Made by a program: the position numbers and the translations under genes | Assembly (NCBI GenBank): GCA_963701185.1 | Contig: OY969569.1 | Coordinates: 383,054-447,053 of the forward strand | Reading direction: 5' to 3' | From: Candidatus Gottesmanbacteria bacterium | GTDB lineage: Bacteria > Patescibacteriota > Microgenomatia > UBA10105 > UBA927 | DNA: 64,000 nucleotides | The notes under the pieces: generated by a model | The model's input: the letters and a program-made list of their open reading frames with translations, nothing else | What the model was told of the DNA's origin: nothing | Database searches by the model: none | Shown: piece after piece, positions 57,021 through 58,946 of the stretch | How the letters are laid out: the number at the start of each line of letters is the position of its first letter | Numbering within the stretch: position 1 is the stretch's first letter

Positions 57021-58946
57021 ATGGCCAAAAATTCTGACAAATATACCGGTGCGCAGATCGTCGTTTTGGAGGGCTTAGAGCCCGTCCGGAAGCGCCCGGC
57101 CATGTACATCGGCACGACAGGGCCGGCCGGCCTCCAGCACTGTCTCAATGAAATTGTCGACAACTCCATTGATGAGGCGCTGGCAGGATACGCCAAAAAC
57201 GTCTGGGTACACTATCCATAAAGATAACAGCGTAACGGTCATGGATGACGGCCGCGGCATTCCGGTTGATAAAAATCCGAAATACAAAGTATCGGCACTG
57301 GAATTGGTCATGACCAAACTCCATGCCGGCGGCAAATTTGAGGGCAAAGCATACAAAGTGTCCGGAGGGTTACATGGTGTGGGCGCATCTGTCGTCAATG
57401 CGCTATCGAGTTCCATGAAAGTGGAGGTGTACCGCGACGGGGGCGCATTCGTACAGGAATACAAGCGGGGAATCGCCCTCTACCCGGTCAAACGGATCGG
57501 GGCCGTCAAAAAAAACCGGAACAACAACACGTATGTACCGGATCCGGAAATTTTTAAAGAGGGGATCGCACTCAATTTTGACACCGTCAAAAAACAGGTC
57601 CGCGACCGCGCATATCTTATCGCCCGTCTTGCCTTTCATTTAAAAGACGAGCGAAGTGACGAAGAAGCACACTATTATTTTGAAGGCGGCATCACGTCGC
57701 TTGTCAAAGCATTAAACCGAAATAAAGCAGTTATTACATCCGGCAATTTTAATAAGCCGAGAATCTGATGATAAAGAAATGAGCGTTGACGTGTCCATCC
57801 AATATAACGATGCGTTTGCCGAAAACGTGGAATCGTACGTCAACGTCATCCACACTCCCGAAGGGGGTACGCACCTGACCGGTTTCCGCATGGCCCTCAC
57901 CCGCGCCATCAACGATTACGCCAAAAAATCCGGCGCCACGAAAAACGGGGACGACTCCATTACCGGCGACGATACCCGCGAAGGACTCACCGCCATCGTG
58001 TACGTGAAAATGCCCTCCCAATATCTGCAGTTTGAAGGCCAGACCAAAGAAAAACTTGGGAATGCCGAAGTGACGCCGTTTGTACAGTCGGCAGTGAAAG
58101 AGGGTTTGGACACCTATTTTGAAGAAAATCCGGCTGACGGCCGCGCGATTTTGGAAAAAGTCTTTTTAGCTGCCAAAGCGCGACTCGCCGCAAAAGCCGC
58201 CAAAGACGCCGTCATCCGCAAAGGCGCACTGGAAGGCGCGTCACTGCCGGGAAAACTGGCAGACTGCCAGGAAAAAGACCCGACGATTTCGGAACTTTTT
58301 ATCGTTGAGGGAGATTCAGCAGGCGGCAGCGCCAAGCAGGGCCGCGACCGAAAATTCCAGGCAATTTTGCCGCTTCGGGGAAAAATTTTAAATACCGAAC
58401 GGGCGAGACTCGATAAAATCATAGAATTTGAAGAGCTCAAGGCGCTGGTCATCGCCCTGGGCATGGGCATCGCCGACAGCCTGAATCCCGAAAAACTTCG
58501 CTATCACCGGGTCATCATCATGACCGATGCGGATGTGGACGGCGAACACATCATGACACTCCTCCTCACGTTCTTTTACCGCCACCTTCCCTACATTATA
58601 GAAAAAGGGCATCTTGTACATTGCCCAGCCGCCGCTTTTTAAGATCACGTGGGGCAAACAATCATATTACGCCTACTCGGATGAAGAACGGGATGCTACC
58701 GTCAACACACACGCAAAAGAATTTAAAGGCGCCCCGTCCATACAACGCTATAAAGGCTTGGGAGAAATGAATCCGGAACAACTCTGGGAAACAACGATGA
58801 ATCCTGCTCACCGCGTGATGCGTCAGGTAACAATCGTGGATGCTGCCGCAGTCGACGGCGTATTTTCGATGCTGATGGGAGACGAAGTGCCGCCACGGAA
58901 GCGCTTTATCCAGACACATGCAAAGTCAGCTACTTTGGACATATAA
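57021..58946 (+). pseudogene. gyrB: DNA gyrase subunit B interrupted by three +1 frameshifts (pseudogene or sequence errors)
   Basis: The GyrB sequence is colinear across ORFs 57021..57221, 57148..57768, 57779..58642 and 58614..58946. Single extra nucleotides sit near 57209, 57763-57766 and 58616. All GyrB motifs are present (GHKL ATPase, Toprim EGDSAGG, YKGLGEM). Confidence 0.8.

What the first reader, a model, noticed from the sequence alone, without database searches (positions are those of the whole stretch)
57021..58946. gyrB carries three independent +1 frameshifts at non-homopolymer sites while gyrA and neighbours are intact
A GyrB homolog is colinear across three reading frames, with all catalytic motifs present. 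Each junction is explained by exactly one extra nucleotide: gtaCact near 57209, atcTgat near 57765, and cttGtac near 58616. None is in a homopolymer run, so typical indel error is less likely. All other long genes in the window are intact, including the 6.5-kb giant gene. Possible explanations are real pseudogenisation with a second gyrB elsewhere, strain-mixture consensus errors, or disruption linked to the adjacent inserted cassette. A genuinely broken gyrB next to an intact gyrA would be biologically surprising.
Basis: seen in the sequence. Interest (0 to 1): 0.55.

Follow-up and report, generated by a model that had tools for sequence, protein, structure and literature searches.

The report
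gyrB frameshifts: local assembly artefact
The gyrase B gene of this Gottesmanbacteria (CPR) genome really is written with several one-base insertions and deletions, but the evidence points to consensus errors confined to a poorly resolved 2.8-kb stretch of the assembly rather than to a dead essential gene.

Summary
gyrB (57021-58946, +) runs through frames 0>1>2>0 because of three single-base insertions. One site is misplaced: the second lies at 57731-57733, not 57765. Two form a compensating +1/-1 pair (G-run 57499-57502; 57528|57529) that garbles nine codons, including the conserved 'TGT' ATP-site motif. The third is a -1 in an A-run (56887-56889) that truncates the small ORF just upstream. 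All six lie inside 55814-58616. An independent k-mer assembly of run ERR10755943 matches the window 100% on both sides of this interval. Its contigs end at 55813 and start at 58617, the base right after the third insertion. Once the five gyrB indels are undone, the 640-aa protein has no mismatch at 405 columns conserved in 124 relatives. Its dN/dS (0.03-0.05) equals that among intact relatives, and its promoter is conserved. All gyrB indels can be placed at third positions of four-fold degenerate codons, as expected if strain SNPs were mis-merged into the consensus. The best reading is a local consensus artefact in a strain-variable or badly polished interval of a 995-kb single-contig MAG (confidence about 0.8). 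Read mapping, which I could not do, is needed to settle it. Interest is low.

The parts
57021..58946 (+). gyrB (DNA gyrase subunit B). It is written in four pieces, called in the public record as 57021-57221, 57241-57768, 57779-58642 and 58614-58946.
   Evidence: After correction Pfam finds HATPase_c, DNA_gyraseB, Toprim and DNA_gyraseB_C.
57209..57210 (+). Insertion 1: one extra base in GT[AC]ACT, at the wobble position of Val63. Frame 0 changes to frame 1.
   Evidence: Relatives read GTA-ACT, GTG-ACT or GTA-AAT.
57499..57502 (+). Insertion 2: G4 where G3 is expected (Gly160 codon plus one G). This starts a nine-codon out-of-frame stretch.
   Evidence: P0261 and L092 read IGPSKKTGTTTTYVPD.
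57528..57529 (+). Deletion: the third base of Thr169 (ACA ACA AC^ ACG) is missing, which restores the frame.
57731..57733 (+). Insertion 3: one extra base in GT[TA]TTA, at the wobble position of Val237. Frame 1 changes to frame 2.
58614..58616 (+). Insertion 4: one extra base in CT[TG]TAC, at the wobble position of Leu531. Frame 2 changes to frame 0. T and G are the two alleles seen in the four closest relatives.
   Evidence: Logan contig L008 starts at 58617.
56625..56897 (+). Small ORF of unknown function, truncated to 90 aa by loss of one A in the run 56887-56889. Its homologues are 104 aa.
55814..58616 (.). Interval that holds all six indels. It is not reproduced by the Logan contigs of ERR10755943, which match 43488-55813 and 58617-64000 at 100%.
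56958..56986 (+). gyrB promoter-like site, TAGACA-17-TACAAT, conserved in relatives.
55818..55871 (+). Copy 1 of a 54-nt hairpin-plus-palindrome repeat. Copy 2 is at 56551-56604 (93% identical). The two copies flank the 173-aa ORF 55942-56463.
59033..61045 (+). hppA (H+-pyrophosphatase). Intact, and syntenic between gyrB and gyrA in relatives.
61050..63566 (+). gyrA (838 aa). Intact, and identical to Logan contig L008.

Best explanation
The organism most likely has an intact, functional 640-aa GyrB. The frameshifts are errors of the deposited consensus, a 995-kb single-contig MAG. They are confined to a 2.8-kb interval (55814-58616) that the assembly resolved badly.

The likely cause (inferred) is that co-occurring strain variants differ in this interval, which includes a mobile-looking cassette and the very conserved gyrB. 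As a result, the short-k-mer graph breaks at its edges. The sequence across it would then come from a consensus or bridging step that kept both alleles of a SNP (GTA/GTC, GTT/GTA, CTT/CTG), dropped one (ACN), or miscounted short runs (G3 to G4, A4 to A3).

Shown: the clustering of the indels, the coincidence with the contig ends, the lack of any decay, and the wobble placement.
Inferred: the strain mixture and the exact software step.
For: 1. At least six indels fall within 2.8 kb and affect two unrelated genes. Syntenic genes from 42 to 64 kb are all single-frame against relatives.
2. Logan contigs of ERR10755943 are 100% identical to 43488-55813 and 58617-64000. One ends at 55813. The other starts at 58617, one base after the inserted base. 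Both ends abut third codon positions.
3. Products from inside the interval are on record only for NCBI and ENA, while the complete flanking genes pilB, hppA and gyrA also carry a Logan source. holB, whose 3' end runs into the interval, does not.
4. The fully corrected protein has 0 mismatches at 281 invariant columns and at 405 columns >=95% conserved in 124 relatives. Intact relatives have a median of 3 private changes at such columns.
5. dN/dS is 0.03-0.05, the same as among intact relatives.
6. The promoter is conserved.
7. All five gyrB indels can be placed at third positions of four-fold degenerate codons. The joint probability for random indels is about 0.009 (a post-hoc test).
8. All 120 best-scoring cluster representatives are full-length (636-692 aa; one of 1074 aa carries an intein), including those on ~1-Mb single contigs (P0012, P0030, P0074, P0259).
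9. Consensus indels that fragment gene calls are a known property of long-read MAGs, and microdiversity degrades them (PMC9262707).
Against: - No reads could be inspected, so the strain mixture is inferred and not seen.
- Three of the insertions are not in homopolymers, which is unusual for plain sequencing error.
- The sequencing platform and assembler of the deposit are unknown to me.
- The Logan contig start at 58617 could also arise from a variant at 58647 (k = 31), in which case the coincidence with site 3 would be chance.
- No intact copy of this exact gene exists in any collection searched.
- Another Gottesmanbacteria contig (L089) carries a gyrB with two in-frame TAA codons, so broken gyrB genes do occur in deposits of this clade.
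Confidence: 0.8

Rival explanations
1. The inactivation is real. The assembled haplotype truly carries a gyrB destroyed by five indels. Either it is a very recent pseudogene complemented by a second gyrB/parE elsewhere in the 995-kb genome, or it is a defective variant coexisting with an intact allele in the population.
For: The frameshifts are in the public record as deposited. The insertions are non-homopolymer. The k-mer graph branches at the interval edges, which is compatible with two haplotypes of which one could be the broken one. L089 shows that a broken gyrB occurs in another deposit.
Against: There are five indels but no substitution at 405 constrained columns, and dN/dS is unchanged. 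A neutrally decaying gene should gather several substitutions per indel (general knowledge). With about 20 substitutions, roughly 9 hits at constrained columns would be expected. gyrA and the promoter are intact. The neighbouring small ORF is hit too, which a gyrB-specific process does not explain. The indels are biased to wobble positions. To my knowledge, CPR genomes usually carry a single gyrA/gyrB pair.
Confidence: 0.12
2. Cassette-linked disruption. Insertion of the hairpin-flanked cassette (55818-56604 plus the small ORF) between holB and gyrB silenced gyrB, which then decayed.
For: The window has about 1.2 kb between holB and gyrB where L001 has 97 nt. Relatives carry IS200-like Y1 transposase genes at the same spot (L006, L093, L094).
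Against: The conserved gyrB promoter lies downstream of the cassette and is intact. Relatives with insertions at this spot have intact gyrB (L006, 639 aa). There is no decay signal. A cassette gene is itself frameshifted.
Confidence: 0.04
3. Programmed recoding. The gene is expressed through three +1 ribosomal frameshifts, through transcriptional slippage, or as a split protein.
For: All three main shifts are in the same direction (+1), and the total of three extra bases restores the original frame.
Against: None of the 120 listed cluster representatives has a frameshift (DNA of seven checked), so nothing is conserved. The sites share no slippery codon, in-frame stop or rare-codon context (GTA|CAC, GTT|ATT, CTT|GTA), unlike prfB CUU-UGA. 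There is no long A/T run at the sites. The extra +1/-1 pair would still destroy the ATP-site Thr motif. The pieces cut through folded domains.
Confidence: 0.02

Closest known systems
Intact GyrB of Candidatus Gottesmanbacteria (e.g. P0255 and P0258 at 95.2% aa; P0261 on L092; RIFOXYB1_FULL_47_11 P0008)
   Same: Same length (640 aa), the same domain order, the same holB-gyrB-hppA-gyrA neighbourhood and a conserved promoter.
   Different: The window copy carries four 1-nt insertions and one 1-nt deletion. The relatives carry none.
Consensus indel errors that fragment genes in long-read or hybrid metagenome assemblies (the problem measured by the IDEEL test and addressed by proovframe)
   Same: Single-base indels split an otherwise perfect gene. 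The contig is a ~1-Mb single-contig MAG. The errors cluster where an independent k-mer assembly of the sample breaks.
   Different: The classic cases are homopolymer deletions spread over the genome (PMC9262707). Here most are insertions, half are not in homopolymers, and they are confined to one 2.8-kb interval and tied to wobble positions. This suggests mis-merged strain SNPs or a bridging step rather than raw basecalling error.
Programmed +1 ribosomal frameshift of prfB (RF2)
   Same: A +1 shift is needed to read through.
   Different: There is no conserved site, no CUU-UGA-type slippery or stop context, no upstream Shine-Dalgarno stimulator, three different sites, and the shifts are absent from all relatives.
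Frameshifted genes of reduced endosymbiont genomes rescued by transcriptional slippage at long poly(A) tracts (from my own knowledge; not checked in a paper here)
   Same: An essential gene is written out of frame in a small genome.
   Different: That mechanism needs long A/T runs at the shift. The three main sites here have none, and the only long run (A8, 57508-57515) is also present in frame in relative L005.

Membership tests
DNA gyrase subunit B (type IIA topoisomerase, GyrB) | GHKL ATPase, transducer, Toprim and C-terminal domains in order, colinear with known GyrB | tested here: met
   Pfam finds HATPase_c, DNA_gyraseB, Toprim and DNA_gyraseB_C on the corrected protein. E = 8e-202 to E. 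coli GyrB over the full length.
DNA gyrase subunit B (type IIA topoisomerase, GyrB) | Catalytic and ligand motifs: N-box [23 protein letters not shown], the Gly-Thr of the ATP site (E. coli T165), QTK loop, [16 protein letters not shown] | tested here: inconclusive
   All are present in the conceptual translation except the Gly-Thr motif, which reads Arg-Asn as written. It is restored only after undoing the +1/-1 pair.
DNA gyrase subunit B (type IIA topoisomerase, GyrB) | One uninterrupted reading frame | tested here: not met
   Four ORFs in three frames.
DNA gyrase subunit B (type IIA topoisomerase, GyrB) | Partner gyrA present | tested here: met
   gyrA 61050-63566 is intact at 838 aa.
Assembly or consensus artefact | Errors cluster in a region not corroborated by an independent assembly, with clean flanks | tested here: met
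   Six indels lie in 55814-58616. Logan contigs are 100% identical outside it and end at both edges.
Assembly or consensus artefact | The corrected sequence is indistinguishable from a gene under selection | tested here: met
   0 mismatches at 405 conserved columns, and dN/dS of 0.03-0.05.
Assembly or consensus artefact | Reads do not support the indels | not testable with these tools
   No read access. The run ERR10755943 was identified as carrying this genome.
Genuine pseudogene | Relaxed selection: excess substitutions at constrained sites and raised dN/dS | tested here: not met
Genuine pseudogene | A functional paralogue elsewhere, or loss of the partner subunit | not testable with these tools
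   Only 64 kb of the 995-kb contig is available. gyrA is intact.
Programmed +1 ribosomal frameshift (prfB-like) | The shift site is conserved among relatives | tested here: not met
   All 120 listed cluster representatives are full-length single-frame products. The DNA of seven relatives lacks the insertions.
Programmed +1 ribosomal frameshift (prfB-like) | A slippery P-site codon followed by a stop or hungry codon | tested here: not met
   The contexts are GTA|CAC, GTT|ATT and CTT|GTA.

The most novel reading that the evidence does not exclude
The six indels are real in the DNA of one abundant haplotype of this CPR bacterium. On this reading, the cell lives with a multiply frameshifted gyrB next to an intact gyrA. 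It would get GyrB activity from an undetected second copy, from a co-resident intact allele (polyploidy or heteroplasmy-like), or from an unknown correction step at the RNA or translation level.
Probability: 0.06. Interest if true: 0.65.

Novelty: not a real feature. Interest (0 to 1): 0.1.

Why it matters
If the artefact reading is right, the point is practical. The public 995-kb genome has a correctable 2.8-kb low-quality interval, and its 'missing' gyrB should not be read as gene loss in a CPR organism. It would also lower completeness scores that use gyrB as a marker. The case further shows that frameshifts outside homopolymers are not by themselves evidence of biology, because they can mark mis-merged strain SNPs. 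If the frameshifts were real, a broken essential topoisomerase subunit beside its intact partner would be remarkable.

Tried and rejected
1. Finding the source genome and a second gyrB in GTDB representatives with the search for related loci.
2. Exact look-ups of the corrected full-length GyrB (three variants), the corrected 104-aa ORF and seven predicted edge-cut products. None is in the collection. The two positive controls (the partial products of L007 and L008) are absent too, so this test is uninformative.
3. A JGI scan for the species-specific flank of site 3, with or without the extra base, gave no match.
4. A search with the segment between sites 2 and 3 for identical fragments from the same sample gave nothing above 95% identity.
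5. A test for a mosaic of different species, by segment-wise and sliding identity to five relatives, gave no signal.
6. A shared motif at the sites: GTAC occurs at sites 1 and 3 and near the L007 end. I rejected this because site 2 lacks it. About 250 GTAC sites are expected by chance in 64 kb (they were not counted), yet no other gene checked is broken.
7. Other overlapping ORF pairs in the window (pilin genes at 43.5-46.7 kb, and 14-17.7 kb) looked like possible frameshifts. They are separate genes with upstream ORF extensions.
8. An alternative genetic code to explain the two TAA codons in the L089 gyrB. I rejected this because the same gene ends in TAA.
9. A literature search for the run accession and for Gottesmanbacteria long-read genomes returned nothing.

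Full report
**What is there.** The window comes from a Candidatus Gottesmanbacteria (CPR/Patescibacteria) genome. The best GyrB matches all come from that clade. The window's proteins are on record for one 995,214-bp contig held by NCBI and ENA. gyrB occupies 57021-58946 on the + strand and is written as four ORFs in frames 0, 1, 2 and 0. I aligned the DNA with intact gyrB genes of relatives (L001, L003-L006, and later L092, L089 and L009; 73-84% nucleotide identity). The alignment shows exactly three single-base insertions:
- GT[A/C]ACT at 57209/57210
- GT[T/A]TTA at 57731-57733
- CT[T/G]TAC at 58614-58616

Removing one base at each site gives a 640-aa protein, the length of the nearest relatives. 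It is 95.2% identical to P0255 and P0258 and colinear with E. coli GyrB (E = 8e-202). Its second site (57765) is 33 nt too far downstream, because frame 2 already reads [11 protein letters not shown], as in P0255, before that point.

I compared the three-site-corrected protein with 40 relatives. The only window-specific residues at columns invariant in all 40 relatives were R166 and N167, where every relative has G and T. Two conservative changes sat at columns 90% conserved. The DNA shows a compensating pair of indels: one G too many in the run 57499-57502, and one base missing between 57528 and 57529 (ACA ACA AC^ ACG). Between them nine codons are out of frame. The window reads AVKKNRNNN where relatives read PSKKTGTTT. 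This stretch holds the Gly-Thr that aligns with E. coli G164-T165, a residue known to contact the ATP and coumarin site (established knowledge). As written, one functional motif is therefore destroyed.

A sixth indel lies outside gyrB. The 90-aa ORF at 56625-56897 has A3 at 56887-56889 where L093 has A4. Its homologues P0249 and P0250 are 104 aa, and the missing tail is readable in the next frame. The problem is thus not specific to gyrB.

**Where the indels are.** All six lie between 56887 and 58616. Two contigs from Logan, an independent k-mer assembly of the public run ERR10755943, carry this genome:
- L007 (a 19.8-kb contig) is 100% identical to window 43488-55813 over the 12.3 kb held, and it ends at 55813.
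- L008 (5.7 kb) is 100% identical to 58617-64000 and starts at 58617. That is the T of TAC immediately after the inserted T/G of site 3.

The base after L007's end (55814) is the third position of an Ala codon. The base before L008's start is the third position of Leu531. Products encoded inside 55814-58616 are on record only from NCBI and ENA. The complete flanking genes (pilB, hppA and gyrA) also carry a Logan source. holB, whose 3' end runs into the interval, is NCBI/ENA only.

Against relatives, every syntenic gene from 42 to 64 kb other than gyrB is single-frame. A tiling of ORFs over the whole window shows dense coding with no other broken pair. If six indels were scattered at random over the 20.5 kb that could be cross-checked, the chance that all fall in this 2.8 kb is about 6.5e-6.

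**Is the gene decaying?** It is not.
- After all five gyrB indels are undone, the protein has no mismatch at 281 columns invariant in 124 relatives.
- It has none at the 405 columns that are >=95% conserved. The intact relatives themselves show a median of 3 private changes at such columns.
- Nei-Gojobori dN/dS against four relatives is 0.03-0.05, the same as among the relatives.
- The promoter-like TAGACA-17-TACAAT (56958-56986) is conserved with relatives.
- gyrA is intact.

A gene neutral for long enough to collect five indels should also have collected many substitutions. This is an inference from general knowledge of bacterial pseudogenes. With about 20 substitutions, roughly 9 would be expected at the constrained columns, and none is seen.

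**A pattern in the indels.** Each of the five gyrB indels can be placed at the third position of a four-fold degenerate codon: Val63, Gly160, Thr169, Val237 and Leu531. For random indels in this gene, the joint probability of that is about 0.009. The criterion was lenient and chosen after seeing the data.

At the three main sites the two adjacent bases look like two alleles of a synonymous SNP kept side by side: A+C, T+A and T+G. At site 3, T and G are exactly the alleles of the four closest relatives. Together with a k-mer contig that begins right after that position, this fits a strain SNP mis-merged into the consensus. I cannot name the software step. A 1-Mb single contig suggests long reads or hybrid bridging. 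In that case, sequence between short-read contig ends would come from a less accurate consensus, and mixed strains would make it worse. Consensus indels that fragment gene calls, and the effect of microdiversity on MAG quality, are documented for such assemblies (PMC9262707).

**Caveats.**
- No reads were available.
- With k = 31, a contig start at 58617 could also be caused by a variant at 58647. That is a first codon position and so a less likely SNP site. In that case the coincidence with site 3 would be chance.
- L007's end at 55813 is only 5 nt from a hairpin repeat, so a coverage drop there is an alternative cause. L007's other end falls on another copy of a dispersed palindrome.
- No intact copy of this exact gene was found anywhere. 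That only shows the species is rare in the collections.
- The look-ups of predicted partial products were uninformative, because the positive controls failed.

**Rivals.**
- A real, very recent inactivation, with a second copy or an intact allele elsewhere, is not excluded (about 0.12). It must explain indels without substitutions, the hit on the neighbouring ORF and the wobble bias.
- Cassette-linked silencing is unlikely. The conserved promoter lies downstream of the cassette, and relatives with insertions at the same spot (L006 with a Y1 transposase) keep gyrB intact.
- Programmed frameshifting is close to excluded. Nothing is conserved in relatives, there is no slippery or stop context, and the +1/-1 pair would still ruin the ATP site.

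gyrB-hppA-gyrA is the ancestral arrangement in this clade (L001, L002, L006, L089). L090 and L091 carry a soluble pyrophosphatase in the same slot.

**Verdict.** The novelty class is 'not a real feature', and interest is low. The decisive test is to map reads over 55.5-58.9 kb.

Noticed in passing
window 57499-57529: There is a compensating +1/-1 indel pair inside gyrB. It turns PSKKTGTTT into AVKKNRNNN and removes the Gly-Thr that aligns with E. coli T165. It is invisible to ORF-level inspection.
   Followed up: yes
window 56625-56897 (A-run 56887-56889): A small ORF of unknown function upstream of gyrB is truncated from 104 to 90 aa by a 1-nt deletion. Its homologues (P0249, P0250) sit next to IS200-like Y1 transposase genes upstream of gyrB in other Gottesmanbacteria (L093, L094). 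It has no Pfam or PHROG match.
   Followed up: partly
window 35983-36014, 55840-55871, 56573-56604, 63850-63881: A 28-nt perfect palindrome, TGTTTTAATGTTTTAAAACATTAAAACA, occurs four times in intergenic positions (0 expected by chance). At 55818 and 56551 it is preceded by a GC-rich hairpin. Exact copies occur in 10 public metagenome contigs, including Hainich groundwater well H43. It is possibly a REP-like or terminator element, or a target or end of IS200/IS605-type elements.
   Followed up: partly
window 55839-57020; L006 9218-9805; L093 451-1095: The holB-gyrB intergenic region looks like an insertion hotspot. It is 97 nt in L001. In the window it is about 1.2 kb with two orphan ORFs, and in L006, L093 and L094 it holds a Y1 transposase gene.
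   Followed up: partly
L089 3932-3934 and 4736-4738 (ENA ERZ27250200, k141_727720, 168 kb): Another Gottesmanbacteria contig, from a short-read MEGAHIT assembly, has a gyrB with two in-frame TAA codons. They sit at otherwise invariant Glu266 (GAA>TAA) and Gln534 (CAA>TAA). The second is three codons from the window's site 3. The neighbouring genes are intact. The cause is unknown: it could be assembly error, a real nonsense allele or DNA damage.
   Followed up: partly
L093 2531-3770; P0036 and P0265 (1074 aa): Some Gottesmanbacteria gyrB genes carry a ~1.2-kb insertion at the position of window 58327, in the Toprim region next to EGDSAGG. It has an intein Pfam hit (PF14890).
   Followed up: no
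window 59033-61045; L090 5186-5689: A pyrophosphatase gene always sits between gyrB and gyrA in this clade, but its type differs. It is a membrane H+-PPase in most relatives and a soluble PPase (PF00719) in L090 and L091.
   Followed up: no
window 7527-14078, 14038-15021 and 16700-17741: There is a 2183-aa protein with many ~100-aa repeats ending in TCTITN-like motifs and a C-terminal membrane anchor. It is followed by a 327-aa protein with a similar anchor and a sortase-sized ORF. Nearby is a collagen-like G-x-y repeat protein (GATGATG...).
   Followed up: no
L090 and L091, about 3100-4000: The apparently truncated 387-aa gyrB calls in the ANAN16 scaffolds are caused by runs of 100-110 N (scaffold gaps), not by frameshifts. 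Many ~388-aa 'GyrB' entries in the protein collection start at the same internal Met (MSVDVS). This suggests contigs often break just upstream of it.
   Followed up: partly
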